This document shows, one piece after another, positions 3,241 to 50,108 of a stretch of DNA of 64,000 bases. Numbering within the stretch: position 1 is the stretch's first letter; each line of letters begins with the position of its first letter. The position numbers were made by a program, and so were the translations under genes. The stretch is from a virus. The notes under the pieces were generated by a model, which saw only the letters and a list, made by a program, of their open reading frames with translations, was not told the origin of the DNA and did no database searches. The stretch covers positions 1-64,000 of the IMG/VR virus record IMGVR_UViG_3300022187_000017; one strand, given 5' to 3'.

Positions 3241-4140
3241 TTAATTAATTAATGTTGAAAATCTCCTGATCAAATCAGTTGCTGTTAAAATACTATCTGG
3301 ACTTAATGGCTTTTGATCAATTGTCTTTGTCTGAATGTACATTTTCAATAAATCTATGATCAACTGCCTTAGATCCTCACTACTATTCTTTATATGGAAT
3401 CCTGCTTCATTGATAGTAAAATCATTCCCTGCTGCATCTGCCCAGACAAATCCTCCATCCTTGATAGTCATTTCATTCTCATACCTATCTACATATGTTA
3501 AGATCCCAGCCTTAGTTAATGCTAAGGTAGATATCTCATCTTCTTTTGATGCTATCTTGATGTTAAGTTCATTCTCAGCAAATATATTTAGAATGTCATC
3601 AGATTTGATATCTGCAGATCCATCTAAATTGAAACTGATAGATGTTGTTTTATCCCCACCTTGGACTTTCACACCAAACCCACCTTTGTCCTGCTCATCA
3701 GATATTATAGATACTGTATAGCTCTTATCCTTAATTGACATTACTCTGGAGACTCTAGTATCATCACTATCTAATTCATCAACTAATGAACCTTCTCTAT
3801 ATGGAGAGCTACCAGCTGGCTCCTGAAGAATCCCAAATATGATAACCTGATCATACTTTGGAGTTGACACCCAACTAATAAGGGATCCTCTATCTTCTGC
3901 CCTAACTGGGAATATTAACTCTCTAATTATATGCTTTGGAATAGCCACTTCTCTTAGTGGATAATTAGCATCTGTGAGTATCATGCAATATCCTGTCTCA
4001 TACACCTTCCTAATATACTCACTCCTATCAATATCCACTGGTATGATGATCCATCCAGTTCCAGATGAAGGCCTACCTTCAGGAGATAGGTTTAATATCT
4101 TCCCAGTTTCTTTGTATTTATGTATAGCCTTTTTAAGCAT
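3241..4140 (-). CDS. Putative baseplate central spike (gp5/gpV-like)
   Basis: Follows hub gene; N-terminal OB-fold-like 'FPV....RGSLI.W' and C-terminal short beta-strand repeats. Confidence 0.55.
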   Translation of the reverse strand: MLKKAIHKYKETGKILNLSPEGRPSSGTGWIIIPVDIDRSEYIRKVYETGYCMILTDANYPLREVAIPKHIIRELIFPVRAEDRGSLISWVSTPKYDQVIIFGILQEPAGSSPYREGSLVDELDSDDTRVSRVMSIKDKSYTVSIISDEQDKGGFGVKVQGGDKTTSISFNLDGSADIKSDDILNIFAENELNIKIASKEDEISTLALTKAGILTYVDRYENEMTIKDGGFVWADAAGNDFTINEAGFHIKNSSEDLRQLIIDLLKMYIQTKTIDQKPLSPDSILTATDLIRRFSTLIN

Positions 4141-7100
4141 CGAATTGTTTATTTTGTAAAAAGAAGTTTAATACATCTTGATTCACAGTGATATCTGCCT
4201 TATAGTCAAATTTATCATCTGCACTTCCTTGACCTACTATATCATACACTCCTTTAGTCAATTTAGGGATATCTACAATATTGAAGTAAGATACATCAAC
4301 TTGAGTTGAATTCCCATCTTCACCTATAATATCTGTTATCCTGCCACCAATATATTTAGCCTTCATTCCTCTCTCAACCTGCACTGTTGTAGTTCTATCT
4401 ATTGTCTCCATACCAATGCTGATATCCTGACTTACCTGAGTCACATAAAACACCTCATCTGTAGGTCTGAAATAGATGTAATTACCCACTTTAATTCTTC
4501 TATCTCCATTCATTGTGATAGTTCCCTCTCTAGTGAATGGTAGGTGTATATTTGTCTCAACTAAGAAGGCCAGCTCCTGAGATGCCTGCTCTGCAAATAG
4601 ATCTATGTTATCTTCAGTATTTTTATCACTGAAGAATTTATAATTTGAGTAGTTGGATACTGCTGACAATCTTCTGTTACCTATCACCTGTGCCAGTCCA
4701 TCAAAATACAATGCTGGAACATGGCCTAATGTCTGATTGGCTCCTGCAAAATTACCTCTTTGCTCTACTTGATACCATGCATACCCCTTTGATGACATCC
4801 TGAGTGTATCTGAGATCACATCATCTTCATTGATATTGATGATCTTTGGATACTTAGAAGATGTCACTGTCACCTCATCCAATTCATTCACTGCACCTCC
4901 ACCAAATACTGTAGGTTTTTCTGAATTACTTTCACCTGATTCTTGTGCTCTCTTCTGCTCTTTCTCTCTCAACTTTTCTCTATACCTATTTAGAGTTTCT
5001 CCTTCTGCTCCACCTGAATTGGAAGATTGCTCTCCTATGAATGGCTGAAAATCTTCATCTACATCACTAGGTAGTTCTTTATATGCTTCAAATACTGCCT
5101 CCTGTGTGAATGGAGGTTTTCTTGCTATCATCCAGAATCTATCTCCATATGTATCTGTGAAGAATTCTACAAATGGATCTTGACATACCTTCAGTATGAG
5201 ATCAAATATAGATCCATCTGGATTTGATATTGAATCATCTACCACTCTTAGATCTGTAATGGATGAATCGATAAATGCACTCATGATCTGCCAGATGCCT
5301 TTTACTTCTGATTTTATAGTCTCCCTACCCTCTTCTCCCCACTTTGATCGATATGTTATAGTAGTCTTATCCTCAAATGCATTAAATACATCATCAGGAA
5401 CATATCCAATGGTAGCTATCCTACTAAATATAAATTCTAAACTATCCTTTATTGATCTGGCTGTTATGGCTGATATCTCTTGGAATTGACCTCCCATATA
5501 CCTCCCATTTTTAAATGGCTGATCTCCATAAATTGAAGATGCATGTCCTATTGAAAATGGATTGAAGTAAGCATTATCATCCTCCAATACTGACATGAGG
5601 CTTTTACCTCTCACTGCCACTGAGATCTCATTTGTGGATCCTGTAGAGCTCACAGCTACATGATCAACTAATCCTATCATATCATACCACTTACCATCTA
5701 TGTCATCATCAATAGCTCCATCTATTTTAAGTTTTTCATATGAGATAAATACAAGATCATTCTTACCTATAATCCTCTGGTAGTAAGGAATGTTTCTTTT
5801 GAATTCTGAGGCTACATCTCCCTGCTCTGAGAATGCAATTTCCTTATTGACATTTGACATCAATACATCATCATCTCCAGAGGTTACAATTAACTTCTCT
5901 ACAGATGCAGATTTATTATCAACCTCATCCTTTGCTAACTCATACCCAACTCCACTTAGATCAATGCTAAAATCACCTCCAGTCTTTATATGATTTGAGA
6001 TGCTACATAGTCCAATATCCTTAGTGATATCTATAAACCCTATTGAATCCTCTGATCTCTCTAAGTACTTAGCTCTACTCCACAGAAATACTCTTACCTG
6101 TGGCCTGATATCTTTTGCTGTGACTCCTCTGTTCTTGTATGCTGGCACAAAACCCGGATCGACTGTCAACTCCCTCAATATTTGAGGAAAGTATTCATTT
6201 ACATTAACCTTAGTAGATGTAAGATTGCTCTCATATTTATCTCTAATGTTTATTTTAGAAACTTCTATAATAATAACAACTCCTTCACTTAATGGGTATG
6301 CTACCCCACTAGCATAACTGTCATCATCACCATTATTAGATCTCTTCTCCTCAATAGTCAGAGCCTCATATGCCCTCTTATTATTACTCTTACCTTTATA
6401 CTCAAAATCTTTCAAGTCATCAGATGTCATGTCATAGGCTATAAACGTAGCATCTAGAACTAAATCTGAGAATGTTTGATGTCCACTATTTTTAGGAAGT
6501 GTATATTTTATGACTTTAACACCACTATCTTCAATCCCTTCTTGATGCCTTTTAGTTGCATCATTAGCTACCTCCTCCTCATCATCTTCAATTGGATCTT
6601 CACACTCTGGCATTTCACCCTTAGTCCATAATGCATATCTGTAAGATCCAAAAGTCTGAGCTCTACTCTCACCATCACCATCACCTCTGGTATCAATATG
6701 AATAAACCATTTAGCTCCCTTGCCATATAAACCAAATCCTCCAGCTCCTGCATCTAATAATGTTGTAAGTAATGTATCTTGATTCCTAATTGCACATGCT
6801 ATTACCTTCCATGCCTCTTTTGGTTGAGGCCCTATGAATGCAAAGTCCATGGCTATCCCTTTCACATGAACACCTGATGCTCCTGTATGAGAGATCTCTA
6901 AGTTGTATGCTGGAGTTCTCTTTGTGGATGTAACCACTAGAGTATTACCTGCACCTATTTCATCATCTACATAATCCTGTATGATCTGAGCTATCTTAGG
7001 TAATCTAGCATCTATAGAGTGAGTATCTGGAACTTTATTGGCAGAGTTAGCCTTCTTCCCATGAAAATTCTCTTCATGGAATCTGGTAGGAGATATTAAA

Positions 7101-7141
7101 TCCCTTACATCCTTAGTTACTTCTATCCAAGTTCTTGCCAT
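4133..7141 (-). CDS. Baseplate hub / tail-associated lysin with N-terminal peptidase M15 (Zn) domain
   Basis: N-terminal VTSTKRTPAYN...SGVHVKGIAMDF...GFGLY...FIHIDTR; C-terminal PFVEFFTD, RKPPF, GTITMNGDRRIKVG...FYVTQVSQ...TTVQVERG hub motifs; follows tape measure. Confidence 0.8.
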   Translation of the reverse strand: MARTWIEVTKDVRDLISPTRFHEENFHGKKANSANKVPDTHSIDARLPKIAQIIQDYVDDEIGAGNTLVVTSTKRTPAYNLEISHTGASGVHVKGIAMDFAFIGPQPKEAWKVIACAIRNQDTLLTTLLDAGAGGFGLYGKGAKWFIHIDTRGDGDGESRAQTFGSYRYALWTKGEMPECEDPIEDDEEEVANDATKRHQEGIEDSGVKVIKYTLPKNSGHQTFSDLVLDATFIAYDMTSDDLKDFEYKGKSNNKRAYEALTIEEKRSNNGDDDSYASGVAYPLSEGVVIIIEVSKINIRDKYESNLTSTKVNVNEYFPQILRELTVDPGFVPAYKNRGVTAKDIRPQVRVFLWSRAKYLERSEDSIGFIDITKDIGLCSISNHIKTGGDFSIDLSGVGYELAKDEVDNKSASVEKLIVTSGDDDVLMSNVNKEIAFSEQGDVASEFKRNIPYYQRIIGKNDLVFISYEKLKIDGAIDDDIDGKWYDMIGLVDHVAVSSTGSTNEISVAVRGKSLMSVLEDDNAYFNPFSIGHASSIYGDQPFKNGRYMGGQFQEISAITARSIKDSLEFIFSRIATIGYVPDDVFNAFEDKTTITYRSKWGEEGRETIKSEVKGIWQIMSAFIDSSITDLRVVDDSISNPDGSIFDLILKVCQDPFVEFFTDTYGDRFWMIARKPPFTQEAVFEAYKELPSDVDEDFQPFIGEQSSNSGGAEGETLNRYREKLREKEQKRAQESGESNSEKPTVFGGGAVNELDEVTVTSSKYPKIININEDDVISDTLRMSSKGYAWYQVEQRGNFAGANQTLGHVPALYFDGLAQVIGNRRLSAVSNYSNYKFFSDKNTEDNIDLFAEQASQELAFLVETNIHLPFTREGTITMNGDRRIKVGNYIYFRPTDEVFYVTQVSQDISIGMETIDRTTTVQVERGMKAKYIGGRITDIIGEDGNSTQVDVSYFNIVDIPKLTKGVYDIVGQGSADDKFDYKADITVNQDVLNFFLQNKQFDA

Positions 7142-7148
7142 TATTATT

Positions 7149-8867
7149 TTAGTATGATGTCATAAGTGCCTTCAATATAGGCCCTAGAGCAGTATTCATT
7201 CCAGAAGTCCCAGCTGAAATATTAAAAATAGCCTCTTTAATACTATCCCAGTCACTCTCCATATTCTTCATCATAGCATCTTTATCTGAAGTGGCTCCTT
7301 TAGCCTTCTCCATCAATTTAATGTCCTTAGTTTCAGCTTCCACCCCTAAGCTGCCAAGACTCACATTACCTTTAAGCATTTTAATGATATCTGATTTATT
7401 CATAGATCCTCCTGTCATCTGATCCATAAGAATAGCCTTAGAATTCAAATCACCACCTGTCCCCTTCACATAATCCATCATTCCAGCTCCAAATCCTTCA
7501 GCTCCAAGTCCCTTCTCCATCTCAGCCTGTAGCTCAAAATAAGACATATTTGGGTTCAACTTCCTAAGAATATCCATTTTTATTGCTTGTACTTCTGGGC
7601 CTCCCTGATTTGCAAGACCTCCACTTAAAGATTGTATAGTTGATGCAGCATAGTCATCTCTTTTAAATGCACCACCTAAACCTTCTAATTGACTTCTTAC
7701 ATTCAACCACTCATTACCACCTCCTGTAAACCCAGTCCTAGTGAATTGCTGCTCTTGAAATTGAGCATATGATTGAGCTAACTCATTCATACGAGTCATA
7801 TCAGTGTTTTTATCGCCAAAGGCTCCTGTACCAAACATTGTAGAGAAGATCCTTTGAGTAGTTTGAGCAGCAGTATCATCTTTATCCAAAACTCTTGTAA
7901 GCCTCTCTAAGGTGTTTACTGTTCCCTGCTCCATACCAAGACCTCTTCTTAGAGATAGTCCCTGTATTGTTCTATTATTATCCTCAGTGACTCCTCTGGA
8001 GCCTCCATAAGCTCTAGTTCCTGATGTTAGTTGTTGGAAGTATTCCTCTTTACCAAATCCAAGGGATTGAGCTGAAGATCCATCTCCATTATACATCCAC
8101 TTATTATATAAACCTGATCCCCTACCAGCTCCTGTATATGTAGATAGGAAGTTATTATTCTGACCTGATATAGCTGAGTAGTCTGTTAATCCAACCTCTC
8201 TATCTCTACCAGCATCCCACCCACCTTTAAGAAGTTTGAGATAAGATCCTATTGCCACTCCTGCTATTCCTAATGCAGCTAACCCTCCTACACCACCTCT
8301 CATTATTCCCATGGCACTTGGGCCACCACCACCACCTTTACCTTTACCTTGGATCTCTCTTAGTTTAAGTTCATGAAGTGCTGACTTTTGGCCTGCTCCA
8401 CCACCTGTCACTATTTGCTTTAACTGCTCAGTAGTTTGCTGAGACATATCAACATTTGAATCTACAATAGACTCATCACCATCTTTAATGGCTGCTAAAA
8501 TATCTCTGAGTACAAGGATCCCTTCTTTATCAGATCTGGTATCCTTAGCTAGTTCTTGAAATTTCTTACCGAATTCTTTATCTACATCCTTCTTACCTTC
8601 TACTGTAGTAACCTTAGATCTGGCTACATCTCTCTGCTCATACAGCTCATTCTTTCTTTTTTCAGCATCCATCCTATTCATTCTCTGAAGAAGATTGATC
8701 TGCTTCTCATAAGCAGCTATAACCTTAGTAGCTGATTGCTCAGTTTTCATGGCACCAGCAATAGACTCTCTAGTTACCTCTTCTGCCTGCTGCTGTACTC
8801 TACTTAGCTTCTGAGAAACTTCATCTGTTCTTGCTGAAAATACTACTTCCCTACGTGTGCTGCTCAT
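7149..8867 (-). CDS. Tape measure protein
   Basis: Helical Gly/Ala/Gln-rich protein with central hydrophobic segment, between chaperones and hub. Confidence 0.7.
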   Translation of the reverse strand: MSSTRREVVFSARTDEVSQKLSRVQQQAEEVTRESIAGAMKTEQSATKVIAAYEKQINLLQRMNRMDAEKRKNELYEQRDVARSKVTTVEGKKDVDKEFGKKFQELAKDTRSDKEGILVLRDILAAIKDGDESIVDSNVDMSQQTTEQLKQIVTGGGAGQKSALHELKLREIQGKGKGGGGGPSAMGIMRGGVGGLAALGIAGVAIGSYLKLLKGGWDAGRDREVGLTDYSAISGQNNNFLSTYTGAGRGSGLYNKWMYNGDGSSAQSLGFGKEEYFQQLTSGTRAYGGSRGVTEDNNRTIQGLSLRRGLGMEQGTVNTLERLTRVLDKDDTAAQTTQRIFSTMFGTGAFGDKNTDMTRMNELAQSYAQFQEQQFTRTGFTGGGNEWLNVRSQLEGLGGAFKRDDYAASTIQSLSGGLANQGGPEVQAIKMDILRKLNPNMSYFELQAEMEKGLGAEGFGAGMMDYVKGTGGDLNSKAILMDQMTGGSMNKSDIIKMLKGNVSLGSLGVEAETKDIKLMEKAKGATSDKDAMMKNMESDWDSIKEAIFNISAGTSGMNTALGPILKALMTSY

Positions 8868-8871
8868 AGTT

Positions 8872-9276
8872 TTATATTGTTATACTACCATCATCATTCT
8901 TCTTGATATTAGTAATATCTATTTGATCAAATGCCTTATCAATATCATCTTGAGATACCTTACTCACACTTCTCTTAGTCTTGAAGTACTTCCCTCTACC
9001 TGCTTCATAAGAAATAGTTGGATCCTTCTTCTTATGCAATTCACCTTCAATTGCATGTCTTATAGCTAAATCCTGACCTAACTCTATCATCATATCAACT
9101 GGATTTAAAGATCTATGTAATTCAGAATTAAATGGGATATTATGTTTTTCTCTGTATACTTTATCCAGTGGAAATGTATAACTCCATAAAATAACAAATT
9201 CAGAGATGGAAATGTCACCTAACACTCCGTCTCTGAATAATTGCTTCTTACCTTTCCTTTCTTTAAGACTTATCAT
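8872..9276 (-). CDS. Putative tail assembly chaperone (second)
   Basis: Position between first chaperone and tape measure; overlaps upstream gene by 14 nt. Confidence 0.45.
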   Translation of the reverse strand: MISLKERKGKKQLFRDGVLGDISISEFVILWSYTFPLDKVYREKHNIPFNSELHRSLNPVDMMIELGQDLAIRHAIEGELHKKKDPTISYEAGRGKYFKTKRSVSKVSQDDIDKAFDQIDITNIKKNDDGSITI

Positions 9277-9658
9277 CCTTCTTCTCTATCAAAGAATCAG
9301 TGATGGAACTCCATACTTTAGTTAGGTCTTTTGAATACTTACTATACCATGGGTGAACTGTTTCATGATACCCCTTATATAAGTCAAGTATATCAAATGG
9401 ATCTAGCTTTGACCAATTATCCACCTTTAGATCTGTTATTACCTCTGGACATAAAGAGCTCAATACTGCTATCATATCCACTATGTCTAGTGACATGACT
9501 CCCACCTCATCTAAATTACGGACAATCTGCCCATAATTACCTCTGGTTATTTGTGCCTTCATAGTCTGTATGTCTAACAACTGACCTATATCAGGCTTAT
9601 TTATGGTATAGGTGTTTCCACCTGCCTCAAAAATACACTCTTTGCTCACTGTACTCAT
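9263..9658 (-). CDS. Tail assembly chaperone
   Basis: Directly after tail tube; 'YTINKPDIGQLLDI' N-terminal pattern and size typical of TACs. Confidence 0.6.
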   Translation of the reverse strand: MSTVSKECIFEAGGNTYTINKPDIGQLLDIQTMKAQITRGNYGQIVRNLDEVGVMSLDIVDMIAVLSSLCPEVITDLKVDNWSKLDPFDILDLYKGYHETVHPWYSKYSKDLTKVWSSITDSLIEKKDDKS

Positions 9659-9686
9659 AATTCTCTCTTTTTACGATTATTACTAT

Positions 9687-10175
9687 TTACCCTCCCACTC
9701 CTGAAATTAGGATTGGTGTCTTGTATGTGAAATCTTGATTCCTTCCAGCTACCTGCCCTTCAGAAAGATCGATTGACTCTCTCTCCATGAATGCACCTTT
9801 AACTGTCAAGTGCTCAACCCACTTCCCAACTCTAAGGCCATTAGGATCCACTGAATCCTCAATCCTTTTAAGAAGTACTATGTCCACACCTTTATTGTCT
9901 AAAACAATATTGTCTATGAATTCTCTGATGGAGTCTGTTCTTCTGTTGGTAGCACCCGGGATTCCTGATTCATCATAAGATATCTCATAAAATCCTGCTG
10001 TACAAGTTCCACTCCACTGAGTCATTGGTAGCTCTTGAGGTGTTGCCTCTCCAAGACCATAAACAGTCACCCTTCTAAAAGTCTCTGTAACTGTTATATT
10101 CTTCATCCTACCTACCACGTTTCCATTAACCTTGATTAATGCTATGGGTGCTGTTAATGATAATGATTCTGCCAT
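9687..10175 (-). CDS. Tail tube protein
   Basis: Follows sheath; IKVNGNVVGRMKNITVTETF...VYGLGEATPQE motif of SPO1/Twort-like tubes. Confidence 0.85.
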   Translation of the reverse strand: MAESLSLTAPIALIKVNGNVVGRMKNITVTETFRRVTVYGLGEATPQELPMTQWSGTCTAGFYEISYDESGIPGATNRRTDSIREFIDNIVLDNKGVDIVLLKRIEDSVDPNGLRVGKWVEHLTVKGAFMERESIDLSEGQVAGRNQDFTYKTPILISGVGG

Positions 10176-10194
10176 TTTTATATAATATTAATTT

Positions 10195-11838: not shown

Positions 11839-11896
11839 TTATTTTGTTTTTTAATATATATATTTGTTAATATAACAAAATTAAATCAATCTTTCC

Positions 11897-12157: not shown

Positions 12158-12163
12158 GTCTTT

Positions 12164-13683: not shown

Positions 13684-13762
13684 TACTTACAATATAGTGT
13701 TTTTTATCATAGTATCTCTCTTACTGGTATGTTATATTAGATCAAGACCACTAGTTTGTTTA

Positions 13763-15481: not shown

Positions 15482-15482
15482 G

Positions 15483-37296: not shown

Positions 37297-37299
37297 ATA

Positions 37300-39200: not shown

Positions 39201-39217
39201 GTCTTGTTTATTAATTA

Positions 39218-39796: not shown

Positions 39797-39797
39797 G

Positions 39798-40903: not shown

Positions 40904-40904
40904 C

Positions 40905-41288: not shown

Positions 41289-41456
41289 AATATATATATT
41301 TGTCTCGACTCTTAAATTCCCTGTGAGTCATAAATTAAACTTAACTATCACTTAATATACTGATTTTTTCTTTAACAAGATCTATTTTTATAAAAAAGAA
41401 AAGCCAAAACATTTCTGCTCTGACCTCTCCCCATCATGAAAAAAATTATCTTTATA

Positions 41457-42284: not shown

Positions 42285-42291
42285 ACTTTGA

Positions 42292-43023: not shown

Positions 43024-43071
43024 TATTTCTTGTATTAATTAATTATACTATCTAATATAATCAATTTTTAT

Positions 43072-44373
43072 TTATATATTCACATCCTCATGTCTTATCT
43101 TACCCCTGTGATCCTTGTACAAATGGCACATGCCAGCTGTAGATGAGAATCCCATACTTTCTGACCATAAGTTCCCTGTAAATAGTGGAGCAATTGTGAT
43201 CTTCCTGTAGTCTAATGAGTCATGCTGCACCACTATGATATCTTCATAGACAGCAATCTTCTTCTTTAATGTTCTTTTAGTCTCTCTAGCATGATTGTGG
43301 CCTTGCATTACTATATGATACTCTGCCTCACTGAACCCATAATCCTGTACAATCTTCCCTGTATCCTTCTTAGATAGACCTAAATGGCCATGCATCCCTA
43401 GGTACCCTATACCATCTAGCATCCTTTTAGATACTGATTGGAATACTTCAGACTCTATGCTCTTGTAATCCTTCTGGAATAAGTACTGGAGAGCATAGGC
43501 TACCTCTCCACTCATATCTTCTTTATTACTACTAGTTACTCTGTCATGATTACCCGGAACGAAATCCACCAGCTCCAGATTGTTGATCTTAGAATATAGG
43601 TGTTTACATAGCAGCTCATGTGTCATGATCAATCCATTGATGCCATAAGCATTCTTATCTAATCCCTTCCAGCTATTGATATGATTCAGGCCTGTAAATG
43701 ACTCTATAAAGTCTCCTAAGAGGCATAAATACACCTTCTTATATTGCTTATCATTCACTTCATTAGCAATCTCCTCTAAATATCCTGCTAGGATCCCCAG
43801 ATTGAAGTCCTGTGATTTTTGTAGATCTGCTGTGAATGCTCCTGCATGGAAGTCCCCTAATGGAATCACTCCCCAGCCTAACTTTGCATTACCCTTTTTA
43901 CGTACAGATCTCTTCTTATATTTTATATTCTTCCACAATAGCTCTGGGCATGCCCTAAGCAGCTTGAGAGTGATACCATAATTCTGGACAGTCACCACAT
44001 CAAATCCCATGGCCTTACCCTCTCTCTTTACTTTCATGGAAGTTGACCATGACTTACACTCAAACTTATCTACAGTATACTTATCTGTATCTATTTCAAA
44101 GTGTTTTATAGCATCCTCCTTACTCTTTAAAGGCTTACCTCCCAAGTAGGTTAATATAACTCCATTACTGGATTCTGTTATACTCTCCTTCTCTTCTGGC
44201 TCTGGTATTTTTGATGATATATTCTCCTTTACTACTACACCTAGTAATTCAGCCTCTTGTTCTGTTAATGCATACCTAGGTATTCTATTCTCTTCAAATG
44301 CATCTCCTCTCATTTCTGCAAGTGCAGATACTTGTTCAGCATCTAAGTGAACCCTTATTGTTTTACTATTCAT
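43072..44373 (-). CDS. Calcineurin-like metallophosphoesterase
   Basis: GDFH, GDFIE, GNHD, HGH, GHNH motifs in order. Confidence 0.88.
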   Translation of the reverse strand: MNSKTIRVHLDAEQVSALAEMRGDAFEENRIPRYALTEQEAELLGVVVKENISSKIPEPEEKESITESSNGVILTYLGGKPLKSKEDAIKHFEIDTDKYTVDKFECKSWSTSMKVKREGKAMGFDVVTVQNYGITLKLLRACPELLWKNIKYKKRSVRKKGNAKLGWGVIPLGDFHAGAFTADLQKSQDFNLGILAGYLEEIANEVNDKQYKKVYLCLLGDFIESFTGLNHINSWKGLDKNAYGINGLIMTHELLCKHLYSKINNLELVDFVPGNHDRVTSSNKEDMSGEVAYALQYLFQKDYKSIESEVFQSVSKRMLDGIGYLGMHGHLGLSKKDTGKIVQDYGFSEAEYHIVMQGHNHARETKRTLKKKIAVYEDIIVVQHDSLDYRKITIAPLFTGNLWSESMGFSSTAGMCHLYKDHRGKIRHEDVNI

Positions 44374-44434
44374 AAGTAAGTATTAAGTTATCAATTGTTA
44401 CTTCAGTTCCTACCTAAAATAGGAAAATTCCCTA

Positions 44435-44671
44435 TCACAGGAATATGTAAACAAATGTAGCAATGAGGTATGTGTGAAAAGATACATTCCCTACTATGTA
44501 GATCCATTTCTCTAAAATTGGAATCTTTGCGAATATTTGCCTTTCATTGTGGTACTTATAGATCAGATTATCTAGCACTCCCAATAGGAGTATTGCTAAT
44601 GACAATATACCTGCCACCTGAGCTATAAGTTGTACAACTACAGCAAATGTAATTGATAATATTAAATCCAT
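44435..44671 (-). CDS. Small membrane protein
   Basis: Two hydrophobic segments. Confidence 0.5.
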   Translation of the reverse strand: MDLILSITFAVVVQLIAQVAGILSLAILLLGVLDNLIYKYHNERQIFAKIPILEKWIYIVGNVSFHTYLIATFVYIFL

Positions 44672-44689
44672 TCTTTCTCTCTTTACTGA

Positions 44690-44818
44690 CTACTTGTTAT
44701 ATGTATTCTCAACTAGGAAATCTGACTTTTCAATACTTCCAGTAGAATATGCTAATGCAGTCATTGTTACTATAAGGAAGAGAGCTATTGCAACTCCCCA
44801 CTGTCCACGCTTTTTCAT
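44690..44818 (-). CDS. Small membrane/secreted peptide (42 aa, MKKRGQWGVAIALF...)
   Basis: Hand-translated; basic N-terminus plus hydrophobic stretch. Confidence 0.4.
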   Translation of the reverse strand: MKKRGQWGVAIALFLIVTMTALAYSTGSIEKSDFLVENTYNK

Positions 44819-44920
44819 ATAATGTCCAATTAGTTATGCTTCATTTTTACTGGGTTTAGCTTACCCGACATCAGCCAATATACAAAATTATTGTCACTTT
44901 ATTGACATTGTGACAATAAA

Positions 44921-45268
44921 TTATCCTTTCTGCCATTTAGGAGGAAGAGCCTGCTTCTCTGGTTTGACTATATAAACCTCAACATCAGCTGGAAGATCTT
45001 CTGCTACTCCAAATATTGATGTTGGGTATAGGTAGATCTTACCCGGGCCGACTATTCTCTCAAATCTAACTACAGCTCCAGCCTGAAGGATCACCCTGAA
45101 TCCATTCAAGTAAAGAGTATCCCCTATGAACACTCCTCCATCATCAGCTACAAATGTAGTTGGAGTCTCCAATATTAATGACTCTAGTTTAAAATTCTCC
45201 TGTGCTTGGACACTTGGACATAAAAACTGTCCAACTATGATCAATAGTACTACTAATAATTTCTTCAT
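44921..45268 (-). CDS. Secreted hypothetical protein
   Basis: Signal peptide MKKLLVVLLII...VQAQ (Bacteroidota-type A|Q cleavage). Confidence 0.55.
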   Translation of the reverse strand: MKKLLVVLLIIVGQFLCPSVQAQENFKLESLILETPTTFVADDGGVFIGDTLYLNGFRVILQAGAVVRFERIVGPGKIYLYPTSIFGVAEDLPADVEVYIVKPEKQALPPKWQKG

Positions 45269-45474
45269 AACTTGATTTTAAATTTATCTTCAATTTCCTT
45301 CTTAGTCCCAAATTCCACCTTATGCGTATCTATCTGGTATGCATTATCAGATACAACCATATATTTATCTTTAAATCCTGTCTTAATAACATGCATCACT
45401 TCTGGCTCATCTTCTAGCTTGAATGACTTAACTAATGTTATAGCATTGAACTTTACCCACTTATTCCAAGCCAT
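45265..45474 (-). CDS. Hypothetical protein
   Basis: 69 aa, coupled to neighbours. Confidence 0.5.
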   Translation of the reverse strand: MAWNKWVKFNAITLVKSFKLEDEPEVMHVIKTGFKDKYMVVSDNAYQIDTHKVEFGTKKEIEDKFKIKL

Positions 45475-45478
45475 ATCT

Positions 45479-45862
45479 TTATCTTTGGCCTATGTCTCTT
45501 AGATACTCTCTGGTGTCATCTCTACCCATCATTCTAGCATAAGTCCCAGAAGGGAGCTCTATGATGATCTTACCTGCAGCTGTAGCATACTTTAGTTCCA
45601 TAGCTATTCCACCCGGGATTCTTCCATCTGGGAGAGCCTTGAATGCGAATACCTCACACTCTCTCACCTTAGTACCAAACACCTTATCAAACTTAGCCTC
45701 ATAGGATCCTGTTTTCTCTGCAGCAAACTCTGCTGATACCTCTGGTGTATTTGGATTCAATACCTCCAGACCTAATGCCTCCAAAGTTTTGACATCCCTC
45801 TCCTCTTGAGGAGTATTGTAAATTCCCATAAAATGGGCATAATAAACCTTTAATTTCTTCAT
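45479..45862 (-). CDS. Nucleoside 2-deoxyribosyltransferase-like (NDT/Rcl fold) protein
   Basis: KVYYAH..., VLNP, ECEVFAF, GIAMELKYA...GKII motifs. Confidence 0.7.
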   Translation of the reverse strand: MKKLKVYYAHFMGIYNTPQEERDVKTLEALGLEVLNPNTPEVSAEFAAEKTGSYEAKFDKVFGTKVRECEVFAFKALPDGRIPGGIAMELKYATAAGKIIIELPSGTYARMMGRDDTREYLRDIGQR

Positions 45863-46230
45863 AGTTTTTTTATTAAATCGTATTTCTCAAACATTTCAAA
45901 TTCTAACTCATCACTCCAGATATGGATCTCATGATCTGGTAGGCTTACTATTCCTTTAATGGATCCTGTATCTAGCTCAACTAAGGAACAGTTGTATACA
46001 TTACTTTTACCATTCTTATATGTACCCTTCTCCCATCCATTACCTGAATCCCAGATGATCTTAGCTCCTATCTGAGGAACACTGGCTGCAACCTTCATAG
46101 CTGCCATGATCACATTGAAGAGACTTGGATATGTTTTCTTGAACTTATCAACATCCCAGTCCTTCATCAACTTTCTAGCCTCTCTATTGAGTATCTCTTC
46201 CATTAGGTATTGAAGTTTAGATTCTTCCAC
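45859..46230 (-). CDS. Hypothetical protein
   Basis: 123 aa in coupled operon. Confidence 0.5.
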   Translation of the reverse strand: MEESKLQYLMEEILNREARKLMKDWDVDKFKKTYPSLFNVIMAAMKVAASVPQIGAKIIWDSGNGWEKGTYKNGKSNVYNCSLVELDTGSIKGIVSLPDHEIHIWSDELEFEMFEKYDLIKKL

Positions 46231-46673
46231 TTGATCATGTCTAGATGATCCTTAGATCTTCCATAGCTGGCCTTAGCATCGATAACTCCCTGCACTGACT
46301 GAACCTTACCTTTTACTCTGCCATCCTCACTCACATACTCTAATAATCCCTTTGGCAAACTAGCATGATCCTCCAGCAATATGTCCAGACAATACCCATT
46401 CTTCTTTAACTTCAGGGATCTCTTCCCTGCAGATCCAAGACAGTCTCCTTCTGATACTGATCTAAGGAGAGATAAGATATGTCTCTGCTCTTTAGTTGGC
46501 TTATAGATGATAATATCTAGATCATCTGGAGTTTTGTCCAGATTGAGTCCATGAAGGTGTAGTGCATGTGTCCCTCCTATTACTAAATTACTAAATCTAT
46601 TCAGCTGTGATAAAATTGTGTAGAATTGAATGATTGTCTCATTCATCTTCTCTGTTACGCTTAATTTTTTCAT
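46203..46673 (-). CDS. Minimal nucleotidyltransferase (Pol-beta superfamily)
   Basis: IGGTHALHLHG...PDDLDII, third Asp in CLDIL, K...GRSKDHLD. Confidence 0.75.
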   Translation of the reverse strand: MKKLSVTEKMNETIIQFYTILSQLNRFSNLVIGGTHALHLHGLNLDKTPDDLDIIIYKPTKEQRHILSLLRSVSEGDCLGSAGKRSLKLKKNGYCLDILLEDHASLPKGLLEYVSEDGRVKGKVQSVQGVIDAKASYGRSKDHLDMIKWKNLNFNT

Positions 46674-46797
46674 CTCTTTCTCTTTTTACGTTTTCTCCTG
46701 TTCTTTGCTCTGGTGATCATACCCTTCTTTTTAGACTTCAGAGTTTTTCTATCCTCTGGAGTCATATAGACATAATCACTTACTCCTGAATACCACA

Positions 46798-47181
46798 TTA
46801 GAAATGTTTCTCTTTTTTTAACCAATCTTGCGGTGTTATGTAGCCTTCTCTTTGGCAATGTTCCATATAGTACTGCATATTTTGAAACATATCTAACTTA
46901 CCCTTCGGCTTCGCAACATCGTGTATAGCTAAATTTTTAACTTGGTCTAAGTAAAAATCAACCATCATATATTTTAATCCATGTAGTGTAATATTTATTC
47001 CTCTGCCATATTCTGAGTTAGAGATGTAATCATTTGCTTTTTTGTTTAATTCACTTCTATTCATTTTTTTTACTTGCTTCTGTTCACATTCATTCCAAAC
47101 TTGTTTTAATGCTAACATTACACTTACGCTATCAGGGTAAGCTGTTTCCGCTTGTATTTCTTTAATTCTATCACTTGTCAT
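46798..47181 (-). CDS. Hypothetical protein, mosaic and compositionally atypical
   Basis: CpG-containing segment with no GATC seen. Confidence 0.55.
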   Translation of the reverse strand: MTSDRIKEIQAETAYPDSVSVMLALKQVWNECEQKQVKKMNRSELNKKANDYISNSEYGRGINITLHGLKYMMVDFYLDQVKNLAIHDVAKPKGKLDMFQNMQYYMEHCQREGYITPQDWLKKEKHF

Positions 47182-47241
47182 ATAATTAATTTTAGTGTTT
47201 CAAATTTTGCTAGGTCTATGCCCATTATTACTTCACTCATC

Positions 47242-47838
47242 TTAAAACCTCTTCCAGTTAGCTGGATCTGTATCCAGTATGTTGATCTCAAATCCTACCT
47301 GTACTGAGTGCTTAAATGAAGATTTAATGTTATATAGGATCTCAAAATCCTGCCTGTCTACAAATTGTAGTGTAGCTATCCCCTTGAACCCATTAAAGAA
47401 TTCATATCCTAATACAGCTCCAGCTCCAAATCCTCTCTTTGCTAGACCTCTATCAAGTATTCCATAGTCTATGTATAATCCAGCCTCTAAGTGCTCTAAG
47501 AATAGCTGATTGAATGTGTAGCCTACCTCAACTGCATATCTCTTGTATGCTGGTAGTTCTGGATTAAGTGTAGCATATTCAAATGAAGGTGCTACATGCA
47601 TGTATCCCCACTCCTGTTGATTACCTTGCCATCTTGATTTAACTAGAATATTGGTTAACCCTGAAGGGATCCCATGTGCATCATCTCCTATTACAGTAAT
47701 CTTTGGATCTACCTGTACTGATAATGATACTGCTGTCTGTGCTGATCCTACCTGATATATACCCACTAGGAGTACAGCATACAGTAAGATCTGTAATAAT
47801 GTTCTGGTAATACTAATTTGTTTTTTCATGATTTTCAA
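47242..47838 (-). CDS. Outer-membrane beta-barrel protein (small, Bacteroidota type)
   Basis: Signal peptide ending SAQ, amphipathic strands YAVEVGYTF, LEAGLYIDYG, GAGAVLGYEF, SVQVGFEINI. Confidence 0.65.
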   Translation of the reverse strand: MKIMKKQISITRTLLQILLYAVLLVGIYQVGSAQTAVSLSVQVDPKITVIGDDAHGIPSGLTNILVKSRWQGNQQEWGYMHVAPSFEYATLNPELPAYKRYAVEVGYTFNQLFLEHLEAGLYIDYGILDRGLAKRGFGAGAVLGYEFFNGFKGIATLQFVDRQDFEILYNIKSSFKHSVQVGFEINILDTDPANWKRF

Positions 47839-47859
47839 TTTATGTTTATTGTTGTTTAA

Positions 47860-47892
47860 GTTGCGAATATATAACTAATATATTTAATATCC
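47860..47892 (-). promoter_or_regulatory. Early-type promoter (diverged -33)
   Basis: TAAATATATTAGTTATATATTCGC matches the repeated motif. Confidence 0.55.
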
Positions 47893-48482
47893 TAATAAAA
47901 TTTTATATTGTGCCTTACACTGAAGGCTGTTGGATCATTAGTGATCTGAGGAGTCTCCAGCTCCTGTACAAAGGTTATTATCCTCAATCCATCCTCACTA
48001 CCATCATCATAATAGTAAGTCTCACTGTGGCCTCCTATGATCTCTCTACGTATCTTTGGGAACCTCTTCTGGATCTCTTTACTTAGATCCATATTGATTC
48101 CTTTGGCATGTAAGGCTTTCACTAGATGATATTCCTTCTGCTCAGTTATATCCTTTGACATCTTATCAATGGCTGCCTGCATATGGATCTGGCCTTCATC
48201 AAAGTCTATTGAGAACTTATTTGCTGTTGCTATCCTTCTTGGCTCAAAATAAACCTCTTCCACTCTATACCCTTCACATAAACCCCAGATCATCTTGGTG
48301 TCCCTGCATTGAATATATCCTACAGCATGATCAAATAATGCACCACCATACATTGCCTGTATTGGTTTTATACTTGGCTTTTCTATACATAACCCAACTC
48401 TACCATTGGCTCCTTCTGCTCCTGCTCCTCCATTTAATACTTTATAGAGGTACCCTACTTCTAATTGTTTTGTCTCTCCCAT
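47892..48482 (-). CDS. Hypothetical protein
   Basis: 196 aa ORF. Confidence 0.55.
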   Translation of the reverse strand: MGETKQLEVGYLYKVLNGGAGAEGANGRVGLCIEKPSIKPIQAMYGGALFDHAVGYIQCRDTKMIWGLCEGYRVEEVYFEPRRIATANKFSIDFDEGQIHMQAAIDKMSKDITEQKEYHLVKALHAKGINMDLSKEIQKRFPKIRREIIGGHSETYYYDDGSEDGLRIITFVQELETPQITNDPTAFSVRHNIKFY

Positions 48483-48697
48483 AACTTGCTATTCTTCCCA
48501 TCTGCTGGGAATAGATTAAAATTCTGTTTTACTGTTCTAAATTCTAGATCTGCTGCTACATGATCCATTGCTGGAATGAACTTCTGTGGTATTTTTATAT
48601 TCTTCTCCCAGAGCCTTCTAAACTCATCCTTATCAATAGATAGCATTGGAGGTACTGTCCCTATTACTATCACCTTACCTGTTGATCCTGTACTCAT
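48461..48697 (-). CDS. Hypothetical protein (starts MSTGST)
   Basis: 78 aa; start lies within a 20-bp direct repeat. Confidence 0.5.
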   Translation of the reverse strand: MSTGSTGKVIVIGTVPPMLSIDKDEFRRLWEKNIKIPQKFIPAMDHVAADLEFRTVKQNFNLFPADGKNSKLWERQNN

Positions 48698-48713
48698 ACT
48701 ATAACTTGTTATT

Positions 48714-48884
48714 TTACCAACTACTACCCTTATAATTAGGTCTTTTTCTTGGCCTCATTCCTAATACTGATGGATGAACTAACTCAGGATCTCCATTCTC
48801 ATGTATGATCCATATTAGATCAAACCCTATCCAGTTTATCCTAACCTTCTCTCCAGTAGCTATAATTGTTGATCCTGTACTCAT
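48714..48884 (-). CDS. Small hypothetical protein (56 aa, starts MSTGST)
   Basis: Hand-translated; ATGA overlap with upstream gene. Confidence 0.5.
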   Translation of the reverse strand: MSTGSTIIATGEKVRINWIGFDLIWIIHENGDPELVHPSVLGMRPRKRPNYKGSSW

Positions 48885-49249
48885 ACTGCTGTCTTGTTTA
48901 AGTCAATATATCTTGGCTTATCTGAGATCTTATTGAAGGAAAGACCTTCCTCATACATATCCTCTTGGAAGTATACCAGTCCAGACTCTACATTCACCTT
49001 GATCAATGGAAAGAATCCACCTATTGCAGATGTCTTAGTCTCATATCTGAATAACTTCTCATTAGGCCTCATCTTGAAGTCTGCATATTGACCTACCTCA
49101 AACTCATCCAATGGATATAGGTAGAAGTCTTGACTCACATCTTTAAGTCCAAATGCTCCTACAGACTGTAGGCCATGGCTCTGTTGGCTCTCCCAGATCT
49201 TACACCCCTTGAATGTCTCTAGATCTGTAATTGTTAATCGATTATTCAT
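48881..49249 (-). CDS. Hypothetical early protein
   Basis: Directly behind promoter 49273-49310. Confidence 0.6.
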   Translation of the reverse strand: MNNRLTITDLETFKGCKIWESQQSHGLQSVGAFGLKDVSQDFYLYPLDEFEVGQYADFKMRPNEKLFRYETKTSAIGGFFPLIKVNVESGLVYFQEDMYEEGLSFNKISDKPRYIDLNKTAV

Positions 49250-49272
49250 GATGAAATGATTTATTGTTATTA

Positions 49273-49310
49273 GACTGCTAATATAATCATTATATTTTTA
49301 ATACGCAAAT
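49273..49310 (-). promoter_or_regulatory. Bacteroidota sigma-type early promoter
   Basis: TTTGCG-TATTAAAAATATAATGAT-TATATTAG: TTTG (-33) and TAnnTTTG-like (-7). Confidence 0.7.
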
Positions 49311-49319
49311 TTATCTTTA

Positions 49320-50108
49320 TTACATCACCCAATCCTCTACTATATCTGGCTCTACTCCTGCCTCCAGAGCTTCCTGTACTGACTTGATAGATTCTCCATT
49401 CTTGAATGTATGGCCTATCTGCTCCTCTACAGCTACATACTCAGCTAATAACTCTGGGTTCTCTTTACCTGCTATTAGGAGTGCATTGAATGGACTGAAG
49501 ATACAGAAACAACATGACAGCCTTGGCATCCCCAGATCATATGCTTTATGATACTCCAGATTGTTACCCTTGATCACATCCCAGACCTTCTTAGAGCTCC
49601 AGTCATGTACAGGTAGATAATCTATCACTGTCCTCTTCTTAGTGGTTAACTGCTTATTTAATGACTCCACCTTTCTCTTAGATCTGGCTGGAGACTCCTC
49701 TGCTCTGAATCCAAATACATACAGGATCTTACAAACTCCCATCTCTTTAGTTAGCTTAGTTACTACTCTAGCACCCGGGCCACGCTTGAAATCACTGGTA
49801 CACCATCTCTGTTGGCTACTTGGCCACTTACCTCTCCTCACTGCATACTCCAGAAGATCCTCCTCATAGCCATCCTTATCTCTTCTCTTGCTGTAATAGG
49901 TCTTTAGTCCCCAGTGATCAGATTGTCTCTTAACTAGCTCCTTTGTGCCTTTCCACTCAACCTTACCTAGATCCTGATGTGACACTACTAACTGATCCAG
50001 AGGATAGCACTGTTCCAATGCCATCTGAACCATTTGCCAGACAGACACTAGAGAGTCCTTCCCTCCAGATGAATTGATGATCACTAGATCATAGTCAGCT
50101 AAGATCAT
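49320..50108 (-). CDS. PAPS-reductase-family PP-loop protein (CysH/DndC-like) with Fe-S Cys motifs
   Basis: SGGKDS PP-loop, RWCTSDFK, GFRAEESPARS, AYDLGMPRLSCCFC. Confidence 0.88.
   Translation of the reverse strand: MILADYDLVIINSSGGKDSLVSVWQMVQMALEQCYPLDQLVVSHQDLGKVEWKGTKELVKRQSDHWGLKTYYSKRRDKDGYEEDLLEYAVRRGKWPSSQQRWCTSDFKRGPGARVVTKLTKEMGVCKILYVFGFRAEESPARSKRKVESLNKQLTTKKRTVIDYLPVHDWSSKKVWDVIKGNNLEYHKAYDLGMPRLSCCFCIFSPFNALLIAGKENPELLAEYVAVEEQIGHTFKNGESIKSVQEALEAGVEPDIVEDWVM

What the first reader, a model, noticed from the sequence alone, without database searches (positions are those of the whole stretch)
4133..50108. Apparent total avoidance of CCWGG, paid for with otherwise avoided CpG
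Seen: I found 20 Pro-Gly dipeptides in the minus-strand ORFs (e.g. hub ~6152, tube ~9955, sheath ~10796 and ~11792, capsid ~18555, protease ~19646, portal ~33714, PP-loop ~49774). All 20 are coded CCC-GG or CCG-GG, never CCA-GG or CCT-GG, although Pro elsewhere appears to be mostly CCA/CCT and CpG is scarce. I saw no CCAGG/CCTGG by eye, but the scan was not exhaustive. Established: CCWGG is the EcoRII/Dcm-type site. Inference: strong, long-term selection by a CCWGG-directed host defence that the phage's own modification does not protect against.
Basis: partly seen in the sequence, partly recalled or inferred. Interest (0 to 1): 0.75.

Follow-up and report, generated by a model that had tools for sequence, protein, structure and literature searches.

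The report
Phage genome purged of CCWGG sites
A 106-kb marine phage has removed every CCWGG site by silent codon choice, even spending its otherwise avoided CpG at each Pro-Gly; this is a clear but ordinary case of phages hiding from DNA-cutting host defences.

Summary
CCWGG is absent from the window and from the whole 105,777-bp phage genome. Composition models expect 125-160 sites. A shuffle that keeps proteins and codon usage expects 72.

Pro is otherwise 95% CCA/CCT, and 336/336 CCW before GA/GC/GT. Every CCGG in the genome lies in such a pair. CpG is at 0.08 of expectation.

The purge is one of a discrete set. GGWCC, GAAGAC, AAGCTT, CTTAAG and GTGCAC are also at or near zero, while similar words are normal.

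A 90%-identical Tara Oceans contig shows the same signature. More distant relatives, at least one of them marine, also lack CCWGG. Comparison with the Tara contig points to selection, not methyl-cytosine decay.

The best reading is anti-restriction site avoidance against a CCWGG-directed host system. The host is unknown, probably a marine Flavobacteriaceae; EcoRII-type systems occur in 5 of 401 sampled genomes of that family. The "own modification" clause is not supported: no DNA methyltransferase was found, only a TAGT-type glycosyltransferase.

This scan has already found the same CCWGG/Pro-Gly pattern on other DNA (a marine cyanophage, e1-5734518). The extreme CpG depletion and the GATC/GGCC excess remain unexplained.

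The parts
1..64000 (.). CCWGG-free stretch; the whole window, and the whole 105,777-bp genome it belongs to
   Evidence: 0 sites against 75-100 expected in the window. 0 against 125-160 in the genome by composition models, and against 72 by the protein-preserving shuffle.
6152..6157 (-). Pro-Gly spelled CCG-GGT in ORF 4133-7141
9954..9959 (-). Pro-Gly spelled CCG-GGT in ORF 9687-10175
   Evidence: identical in the Tara relative L058
10795..10800 (-). Pro-Gly spelled CCG-GGT in ORF 10195-11838
11791..11796 (-). Pro-Gly spelled CCC-GGA in ORF 10195-11838
13036..13041 (-). Pro-Gly spelled CCG-GGA in ORF 12940-13683
14267..14275 (-). Gly-Pro-Gly spelled GGT-CCC-GGT. It holds a Pro-Gly CpG and the only GGWCC site of the genome (GGTCC, + strand coordinate 14271).
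16860..16865 (-). Pro-Gly spelled CCC-GGA in ORF 16473-17264
18554..18559 (-). Pro-Gly spelled CCG-GGT in the major capsid protein gene 17840-19366
   Evidence: the capsid identity comes from annotated relatives
19645..19650 (-). Pro-Gly spelled CCG-GGT in ORF 19408-21060
21144..21149 (-). Pro-Gly spelled CCG-GGT in ORF 21069-21698
27138..27143 (-). Pro-Gly spelled CCC-GGA in ORF 24111-27617
31186..31191 (-). Pro-Gly spelled CCG-GGT in ORF 29050-31278
33713..33718 (-). Pro-Gly spelled CCC-GGA in the portal gene 32264-34057
   Evidence: Phage_portal Pfam hit
37630..37635 (-). Pro-Gly spelled CCC-GGG in ORF 37300-38334
38275..38280 (-). Pro-Gly spelled CCG-GGT in ORF 37300-38334
39515..39520 (-). 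Pro-Gly spelled CCC-GGA in ORF 39218-39796
43552..43557 (-). Pro-Gly spelled CCG-GGT in the exonuclease-like ORF 43072-44373
45041..45046 (-). Pro-Gly spelled CCG-GGT in ORF 44921-45268
45611..45616 (-). Pro-Gly spelled CCG-GGT in ORF 45479-45862
49773..49778 (-). Pro-Gly spelled CCG-GGT in the PAPS-reductase-like ORF 49320-50108
56533..57366 (-). TAGT-family glycosyltransferase. It is the only gene that hints at a base modification by the phage itself.
   Evidence: Pfam PF20691, E = 1.9e-43. No Tet/JBP, C5 methyltransferase or ThyA-like partner was found.

Best explanation
The window is part of a 105.8-kb genome, about 98% complete, of a probably virulent tailed phage from the sea. Its host is most likely a marine member of the Bacteroidota, probably a Flavobacteriaceae.

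The phage carries no recognisable DNA methyltransferase. It escapes sequence-specific DNA-cutting host defences by not having their target words. CCWGG is the strongest case: every site costs enough fitness that all have been removed by synonymous substitution. In two of the three reading frames this is free. In the third, Pro-Gly (CCN-GGN), the only spellings without CCWGG are CCC-GG and CCG-GG, and both create a CpG. The phage also selects against CpG, so the two rules collide there. CCWGG avoidance wins 31 times out of 31. This ranks the two pressures: CCWGG is absolute, while CpG is strong but quantitative.

Shown: the absence of the site, the codon switch, its specificity, its conservation in relatives, and the lack of a mutational signature. 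Inferred: that the agent is a CCWGG-specific restriction-modification system of the host population (EcoRII, MvaI/BstNI or PspGI type).
For: (1) Size of the effect. 0 sites against 72-160 expected under four null models.

(2) Silent mechanism. All three frames are empty, against 29.5, 9.5 and 33.3 expected. Pro-Gly is CCS-GG in 31 of 31 cases, against a 95% CCW preference elsewhere.

(3) Restriction-like fingerprint. Only discrete words are purged:
- CCWGG 0 observed / 72 expected
- GGWCC 1/44
- GAAGAC 0/39
- AAGCTT 0/26
- CTTAAG 0/20
- GTGCAC 0/8
Near neighbours are normal or enriched: CCSGG 41/9, GGSCC 28/19, GCWGC 229/192, CCTAGG 15/8, CCATGG 24/13. Gly-Pro shows the parallel switch for GGWCC: 26 of 27 are GGS-CC although Gly is 78% GGW overall.

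(4) Persistence.
- The Tara Oceans contig L058 (about 90% nucleotide identity) has CCWGG 0/29.5 and CpG 0.08. L059 (96% identity) has 0/5.8.
- Distant relatives also lack the site: L066 0/12, L120 0/5.6, L001 1/12. Their Pro-Gly pairs are 13/13 CCS-GG although their CpG ratio is only 0.5-0.65.
- Relatives without the purge spell Pro-Gly CCW-GG, for example Chryseobacterium phage MA9V-3 in 29 of 30 cases.

(5) Ongoing selection. Over 13.7 kb aligned with L058 there are 68 synonymous one-step precursors of CCWGG. 5.7 were expected to have changed. The critical base differs at two of them, but no CCWGG results, since L058 has none.

(6) No self-protection genes. No C5, Dam-type or N4/N6 methyltransferase was found. 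No tyrosine integrase was found, which fits the virulent phages in which avoidance is most pronounced (PMC6286503).

(7) Plausible agent. EcoRII-N/EcoRII-C nucleases sit next to C5 methyltransferases in 5 of 401 sampled Flavobacteriaceae genomes. CCWGG methylation has been reported on marine viral genomes (PMC9516812).
Against: - The host is unknown. The phage RecA is only 59-64% identical to Flavobacteriaceae RecA, against about 53% to other phyla.
- EcoRII-type systems are rare in the sampled family (1.2%). The five genomes with the closest RecA have none.
- From my own knowledge, EcoRII needs two sites to cut, so it alone would not force removal of the last site.
- No host methylome or plating data exist.
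- Most phage ORFs have no family assignment. A novel phage methyltransferase or nuclease therefore cannot be excluded.
- A handful of restriction systems does not obviously explain the tenfold depletion of CpG across all contexts.
Confidence: 0.75

Rival explanations
1. Avoidance of being methylated, not of being cut directly. Some hosts carry Dcm-like CCWGG methyltransferases. Progeny marked at CCWGG would then be destroyed by methylation-dependent (Type IV) nucleases in the next host, so the phage sheds the methylatable word.
For: C5 methyltransferases lie next to EcoRII-type nucleases in Flavobacteriaceae. From my own knowledge, Type IV enzymes such as SauUSI (S-5mC-N-G-S) do recognise Dcm-marked CCWGG. 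This reading predicts the same sequence pattern as direct restriction.
Against: No Type IV system or orphan Dcm was sought or found in any candidate host. The other purged words (GAAGAC, AAGCTT, CTTAAG) are classic direct Type II targets, so direct restriction is the simpler common cause.
Confidence: 0.1
2. Self-avoidance. The phage encodes its own CCWGG-cutting nuclease that shreds host DNA, and keeps its own genome free of the site instead of methylating it.
For: The count is exactly zero in 106 kb. Candidate hosts carry the site, at 0.5-1.1 of expectation. Many phage ORFs are unassigned.
Against: No EcoRII-C domain was found in the genome. No restriction-like family appeared in any Pfam or PHROG scan. 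Five or more unrelated words are purged, which would need several phage nucleases. Distant relatives share only the CCWGG and GGWCC purge while their gene content differs.
Confidence: 0.05
3. Mutational decay. CCWGG and CpG cytosines are methylated, and the sites are lost by 5-methylcytosine deamination, as in vertebrate CpG depletion. No selection on the word itself is involved.
For: TpG/CpA are mildly over-represented, at 1.17. Of the 22 CpGs lost between the two close genomes, 12 are TG or CA.
Against: - Deamination of CCW-GG would give Leu-Gly or Pro-Ser/Arg, not the synonymous CCS-GG seen 31 times out of 31.
- The inner-C deamination products are barely raised: CCAAG/CTTGG 137 observed against 125 expected, CCTAG/CTAGG 140 against 110.
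- Existing CpGs are 63% conserved at 10% divergence. Third-position C before G is kept in 13 of 22 cases, against 307 of 416 otherwise. This is far from the near-total turnover that tenfold hypermutability predicts.
- The phage has no C5 methyltransferase.
Confidence: 0.02
4. A constraint unrelated to defence. CCWGG would be harmful as a signal for the phage's own transcription, packaging or replication machinery, or for DNA structure.
For: None specific. The phage also avoids G/C runs (GGGGS 5 observed / 119 expected) and GGAAAA (8/96), which look structural or translational, not restriction-related.
Against: A used signal would occur at least once. The avoided set consists of short palindromes typical of Type II sites, while words of near-identical composition are unaffected. 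Relatives in other habitats have normal CCWGG counts with homologous machinery.
Confidence: 0.03

Closest known systems
Restriction-site (short palindrome) avoidance in virulent dsDNA phages, as surveyed by Rusinov et al. 2018 (PMC6286503)
   Same: Orthodox Type II-like recognition words are removed completely or almost completely by compositional and synonymous change, in a phage without an integrase. The survey reports near-total elimination in about a tenth of viral genomes.
   Different: Here the host and its enzymes are unknown. At least six non-CpG words are purged at once. The purge sits on top of a tenfold CpG depletion that the candidate host family does not share (CpG o/e 0.5-1.1 in host samples). 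GATC and GGCC are enriched, not avoided.
Total CCWGG purge with CCS-GG Pro-Gly codons in a marine T4-like cyanophage
   Same: Same word, same Pro-Gly codon switch, and the same reading as escape from a CCWGG-cutting enzyme.
   Different: It is a different phage group with a different presumed host phylum. There the price was giving up CCGG avoidance. Here the price is CpG, which is otherwise at 0.08 of expectation, and every CCGG in the genome is a Pro-Gly pair.
EcoRII-type (Type IIE) CCWGG restriction-modification systems
   Same: The specificity matches: CCWGG is purged and CCSGG is tolerated. Complete EcoRII-N/EcoRII-C plus C5-methyltransferase gene pairs exist in the candidate host family.
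   Different: No such system is tied to this phage's host. From my own knowledge, EcoRII needs two sites, so near-siteless genomes are already refractory. Other CCWGG enzymes (MvaI/BstNI, PspGI types) are equally possible and were not surveyed.
CpG under-representation linked to CpG methyltransferases in Mollicutes (M.MpeI; cited in PMC11282364)
   Same: Extreme CpG deficit in a prokaryotic-type genome.
   Different: The phage has no C5 methyltransferase. Its CpGs are not hypermutable. The depletion depends on context: ATCGAT is 28 observed against 39 expected, while TTCGAA is 0/14.5 and GCGC is 0/24.

Membership tests
Anti-restriction by recognition-site avoidance | The site count lies far below expectation under nulls that take composition into account | tested here: met
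   0 observed. Expected 74.7 (window, dinucleotide shuffles), 125-160 (genome, Markov orders 1-3) and 71.7 +/- 5.9 (synonymous shuffles).
Anti-restriction by recognition-site avoidance | Sites are removed by synonymous codon choice, so the proteins stay intact | tested here: met
   All three frames are empty. Pro-Gly is 31/31 CCS-GG and Gly-Pro is 26/27 GGS-CC, both against the general codon bias.
Anti-restriction by recognition-site avoidance | The effect is specific to discrete recognition words; similar words are unaffected | tested here: met
   CCWGG 0/72 against CCSGG 41/9. GGWCC 1/44 against GGSCC 28/19. AAGCTT, CTTAAG and GTGCAC are at zero, while most other 6-bp palindromes are near expectation.
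Anti-restriction by recognition-site avoidance | A cognate restriction system of that specificity is present in the host | tested here: inconclusive
   The host is unknown. EcoRII-type systems occur in 5/401, SinI-like nucleases in 3/401 and HindIII-like nucleases in 0/401 sampled Flavobacteriaceae genomes. None is in the five genomes with the closest RecA.
Anti-restriction by recognition-site avoidance | A non-temperate dsDNA phage without a protective methyltransferase of its own | tested here: met
   No tyrosine integrase. No C5, D12-class or N4/N6 methyltransferase. The Trm1-like gene folds like RNA methyltransferases. Many ORFs are unassigned, so absence is not proven.
Methylation-driven mutational depletion (5mC deamination) | Excess of deamination products and fast turnover of the remaining sites | tested here: not met
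   CTWGG/CCWAG are only 1.1-1.3 times expectation. 37 of 59 CpGs are conserved at 10% divergence. The replacement at Pro-Gly is synonymous.
TET/JBP-based cytosine hypermodification cassette (C5 methyltransferase + TET + TAGT) | TET/JBP dioxygenase present | tested here: not met
   No PF12851 match at E <= 1 in the genome.
TET/JBP-based cytosine hypermodification cassette (C5 methyltransferase + TET + TAGT) | C5-cytosine methyltransferase, or a dCMP/dUMP hydroxymethylase, that supplies the substrate | tested here: not met
   No PF00145 and no PF00303 match at E <= 1.
TET/JBP-based cytosine hypermodification cassette (C5 methyltransferase + TET + TAGT) | TAGT-family glycosyltransferase present | tested here: met
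   ORF 56533-57366 (-), PF20691, E = 1.9e-43, full-length match.

The most novel reading that the evidence does not exclude
The CCWGG purge may be only the hardest layer of a two-layer signature.

The second layer has three parts:
- a tenfold, context-dependent purge of CpG that the candidate host family does not share;
- positive enrichment of GATC and GGCC in all three reading frames;
- near-normal retention of ATCGAT.

This layer could reflect something not yet described. One possibility is a defence in marine Bacteroidota that reads CpG density instead of a fixed site. Another is an unrecognised phage modification system (candidates: the two DndC-like PAPS-reductase genes, GP88 and the TAGT glycosyltransferase) that marks GATC, GGCC or ATCGAT, is selected to have many targets, and leaves CCWGG and CpG as the words it cannot protect.
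Probability: 0.1. Interest if true: 0.7.

Novelty: new member of a known kind. Interest (0 to 1): 0.35.

Why it matters
This is a clean natural experiment on how host defences shape phage coding sequence. Two avoidance rules collide at a single dipeptide, and the outcome (31 to 0) ranks their costs.

The purged word set (CCWGG, GGWCC, GAAGAC, AAGCTT, CTTAAG, GTGCAC, plus most CpG words) is a testable prediction of the restriction repertoire of an uncultured marine host population. It could help match this phage lineage to hosts.

As a phenomenon it is well known, and this scan has met it repeatedly, so it does not change understanding. The unexplained part is the CpG level of 0.08 with GATC/GGCC enrichment, opposite to the candidate host family. 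That part is worth a separate look.

Tried and rejected
- Close relatives in the phage collection: a megablast of the capsid region found none.
Read-level polymorphism and sample origin could therefore not be examined.
No tRNA genes were found in the window.
Host-wide site statistics could only be sampled from 20-40 kb per genome.
- Phage-encoded protection or attack enzymes: no Tet/JBP, C5, D12 or N4/N6 methyltransferase, ThyA-like enzyme or EcoRII-C domain. PHROG and Pfam scans of about 80 ORFs gave no restriction, methylase or anti-restriction family.
- The weak Trm1-like hit was followed through homologues, an AlphaFold model (pLDDT 88) and Foldseek. It resembles RNA methyltransferases (Trm1, RlmI-like, TYW2), so it was rejected as a DNA methyltransferase candidate.
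- Protein-level loss of Pro-Gly: the observed/expected ratio of 0.41 lies within the 0.4-1.2 range of relatives. Ortholog comparisons were too divergent to show an asymmetry. Not established.
- A host pointer from co-occurring nucleases: EcoRII-like and SinI-like genes lie in different genomes, and HindIII-like genes were not found. The HindIII control also rang nowhere, so that blank is uninformative.
- The careful maximum-likelihood tree did not finish. Only the quick tree is reported.


Full report
WHAT THE WINDOW IS. The window is the first 64 kb of a single 105,777-bp virus record, classed by IMG/VR as linear and about 98% complete. It has 37% G+C. About 135 of 140 ORFs lie on the minus strand, with 94% coding density.

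Several genes can be named:
- The ORF at 17840-19366 is a major capsid protein: 40% identical to Bacteroides phages DAC16-23, 33% to Chryseobacterium phage MA9V-3, and about 30% to annotated capsid proteins of SPO1-like phages.
- A portal gene lies at 32264-34057.
- Outside the window there are a terminase, a DnaE-type polymerase, RecA and an SbcCD-like pair.
- No tyrosine integrase was found.

A Tara Oceans contig of 110 kb (L058) is about 90% identical at the nucleotide level, and a second metagenome contig (L059) is 96% identical. The lineage is therefore marine. The phage RecA is 59-64% identical to RecA of marine Flavobacteriaceae (Aequorivita, Patiriisocius, Algibacter, Ulvibacter), against about 53% for other phyla. 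A marine Flavobacteriaceae host is likely but not shown.

THE OBSERVATION. CCWGG does not occur in the window or in the genome. Expected numbers are:
- window: 74.7 +/- 9.3 from dinucleotide shuffles and 100.5 from a maximum-order Markov model;
- genome: 125, 160 and 146 from Markov orders 1-3, with a simulation minimum of 91;
- coding regions: 71.7 +/- 5.9, with a minimum of 58, from 300 shuffles that permute synonymous codons while keeping every protein and the codon usage.

All three reading frames are empty, against 29.5, 9.5 and 33.3 expected.

There are 20 Pro-Gly pairs in the window, at the coordinates given, and 31 in the genome. All are CCG-GG (22) or CCC-GG (9). Pro is otherwise 62% CCA and 33% CCT. 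Before GA-, GC- and GT-starting codons it is CCW in 336 of 336 cases.

CpG stands at 0.08 of expectation: 289 sites in all, and 254 in coding regions against 1245 expected even with codon usage kept. Every one of the 31 CCGG tetramers in the genome is a Pro-Gly pair. So the statement "paid for with otherwise avoided CpG" is literally true: 11% of the remaining CpGs are spent there.

IT IS ONE OF A DISCRETE SET OF PURGED WORDS. Against the protein-preserving null, these words are at or near zero: GGWCC 1/44, GAAGAC 0/39, AAGCTT 0/26, CTTAAG 0/20, GTGCAC 0/8, GACAAC 0/21 and CTGGTC 0/24. Near neighbours are normal or enriched: CCSGG 41/9, GGSCC 28/19, GCWGC 229/192, CCTAGG 15/8 and CCATGG 24/13.

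Gly-Pro shows the mirror-image switch for GGWCC. 26 of 27 are GGG-CC or GGC-CC, although Gly is 78% GGA/GGT. The single GGWCC left in the genome (14271) sits in a Gly-Pro-Gly tripeptide spelled GGT-CCC-GGT, where several rules collide.

This profile is the usual fingerprint of escape from Type II-like restriction enzymes: a few short, mostly palindromic words at zero and the rest untouched. [quoted passage not shown]

SELECTION, NOT MUTATION. Five results bear on this.
- Deamination of a methylated CCW-GG would change the protein. What is seen is the synonymous CCS-GG.
- The inner-cytosine deamination products are barely above expectation: CCAAG/CTTGG 137 against 125, CCTAG/CTAGG 140 against 110.
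- Over 13.7 kb aligned between this genome and L058 (10% divergence) there are 68 synonymous single-base precursors of CCWGG, and the measured synonymous rates predict 5.7 conversions. The critical base differs at two of them, but no CCWGG results, since L058 has none.
- CpG-creating synonymous changes number 23 against 134 expected.
- Existing CpGs are not hypermutable. 37 of 59 are conserved, and third-position C before G is kept in 13 of 22 cases against 307 of 416 otherwise.

The eight aligned Pro-Gly pairs have identical spelling in both genomes.

DEPTH AND DISTRIBUTION. L058 and L059 share the whole signature: CCWGG 0/29.5 and 0/5.8, CpG 0.08-0.10, and no GAAGAC, GGWCC, CTTAAG or AAGCTT.

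Three far more distant relatives (40-54% capsid identity; L066 is a Tara contig) also lack CCWGG: 0/12 in L066, 0/5.6 in L120 and 1/12 in L001. They spell 13 of 13 Pro-Gly pairs CCS-GG, but their CpG is only 0.5-0.65.

In a quick capsid tree this genome, L058 and L001 form a supported clade. L066 lies apart within a larger clade that also holds Bacteroides phage DAC16 and Chryseobacterium phage MA9V-3, which have normal CCWGG counts and CCW-GG Pro-Gly codons.

Across about 50 relatives each lineage avoids its own words, such as GATC, GGWCC or CCGG. The purge therefore tracks ecology or host and not ancestry. The CCWGG pressure is older and wider than the extreme CpG depletion.

THE AGENT. The phage has no recognisable means of protecting or attacking the site. 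No C5, Dam-class or N4/N6 methyltransferase, Tet/JBP, thymidylate-synthase-like hydroxymethylase or EcoRII-C domain was found. Scans of about 80 ORFs gave no restriction or anti-restriction family.

A 220-aa gene with a weak Trm1 hit belongs to a family abundant in marine metagenomes. A confident model of it (pLDDT 88) resembles RNA methyltransferases.

A TAGT-family glycosyltransferase (56533-57366) is present without its usual partners. What it glycosylates is unknown (family context in PMC13390438). If cytosines were globally hypermodified there would be little reason to purge cytosine-containing sites, so I infer that they are not.

On the host side, complete EcoRII-type systems (EcoRII-N/C nuclease beside a C5 methyltransferase) occur in 5 of 401 sampled Flavobacteriaceae genomes, SinI-like (GGWCC) nucleases in 3, and HindIII-like nucleases in none. 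None of these is in the five genomes with the closest RecA. That shows plausibility only. CCWGG methylation has been reported on marine viral genomes (PMC9516812), so CCWGG-directed systems do act in that habitat.

WHAT STAYS UNEXPLAINED. Sampled Flavobacteriaceae genomes have CpG at 0.5-1.1 of expectation and under-represent GATC and GGCC. The phage has CpG at 0.08 and over-represents GATC (801 against 517, z = +20, in all three frames) and GGCC (160 against 71).

The CpG depletion depends on context. ATCGAT is almost normal (28 against 39), while TTCGAA (0/14.5), GCGC (0/24) and most S-flanked CpGs are gone. Bacteroides phage DAC16 also has CpG at 0.11. No known bacterial defence targets CpG as such (discussion in PMC11282364). 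I read the CpG deficit as the sum of many CG-containing sites under weak selection in a very large population, but this is inference.

VERDICT. The "long-term selection by a CCWGG-directed defence" reading is the best explanation (about 0.75). The "own modification" clause is unsupported.

This is a new member of a well-known kind. The scan has already reported the same CCWGG/Pro-Gly pattern in a marine cyanophage, and related purges elsewhere.

Noticed in passing
whole window 1-64000, and the rest of the genome: GATC (801 observed against 517 expected, z = +20) and GGCC (160 against 71, z = +12) are over-represented in all three reading frames against a protein-preserving null. After a G-ending codon, Ile is ATC in 43% of cases, against 14-25% otherwise. 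Sampled Flavobacteriaceae genomes show the opposite: GATC at 0.4-0.6 and GGCC at 0.5-0.7 of expectation.
   Followed up: partly
28 ATCGAT sites, e.g. window 724-729, 5267-5272, 18316-18321, 49237-49242: Among CpG contexts the palindrome ATCGAT is almost not avoided (28 observed against 39 expected). ATCGCA (1/28), TTCGAA (0/14.5) and GCGC (0/24) are purged. The CpG depletion is therefore context-specific, not uniform.
   Followed up: partly
window 14267-14275 (-): The only GGWCC site of the genome sits in a Gly-Pro-Gly tripeptide spelled GGT-CCC-GGT. The synonymous escapes would create GCCCC or GGGCCC-type words, which are themselves avoided.
   Followed up: partly
window 56533-57366 (-), 52726-53325 (-), 49320-50108 (-), 50860-51756 (-), 41457-42284 (-): These ORFs encode a TAGT-family glycosyltransferase, a GP88-family protein, two PAPS-reductase/DndC-like proteins and a sulfotransferase. 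No TET, C5-methyltransferase or hydroxymethylase is present. A base or backbone modification is possible, but its chemistry and target are unknown.
   Followed up: partly
L055:12675-13337 (-) = genome 75675-76337: A 220-aa Trm1-like SAM methyltransferase (motifs DLFAGxGN and DLDPYGFP). More than 400 homologues at 58-74% identity occur in marine metagenomes, including Tara. The model (pLDDT 88) is closest to RNA methyltransferases. It is probably a phage tRNA/rRNA modifier.
   Followed up: yes
whole genome, coding regions: Several avoided words are not palindromes and do not look like classic restriction sites: GGGGS/CCCCC runs (5 observed / 119 expected), GGAAAA (8/96), GACCC (4/56), AGCCC (3/55), GACAAC (0/21) and CTGGTC (0/24). 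They may be slippage-prone or structure-prone runs, or targets of Type IIS, Type III or BREX-like systems.
   Followed up: no
L053 (Bacteroides phage DAC16, MT074137.1 93948-135390): This cultured Bacteroides thetaiotaomicron phage has 24% G+C in this stretch, CpG at 0.11 of expectation, GATC 4 observed against 79 expected and GAATTC 1 against 21, but normal CCWGG. Extreme CpG depletion therefore recurs in this phage group with a known host.
   Followed up: partly
L056:570-1541 (-) = genome 82570-83541: A phage-encoded full-length RecA (Pfam E = 7e-107), 59-64% identical to RecA of marine Flavobacteriaceae. It lies beside SbcCD-like genes and a DnaE-type polymerase.
   Followed up: partly
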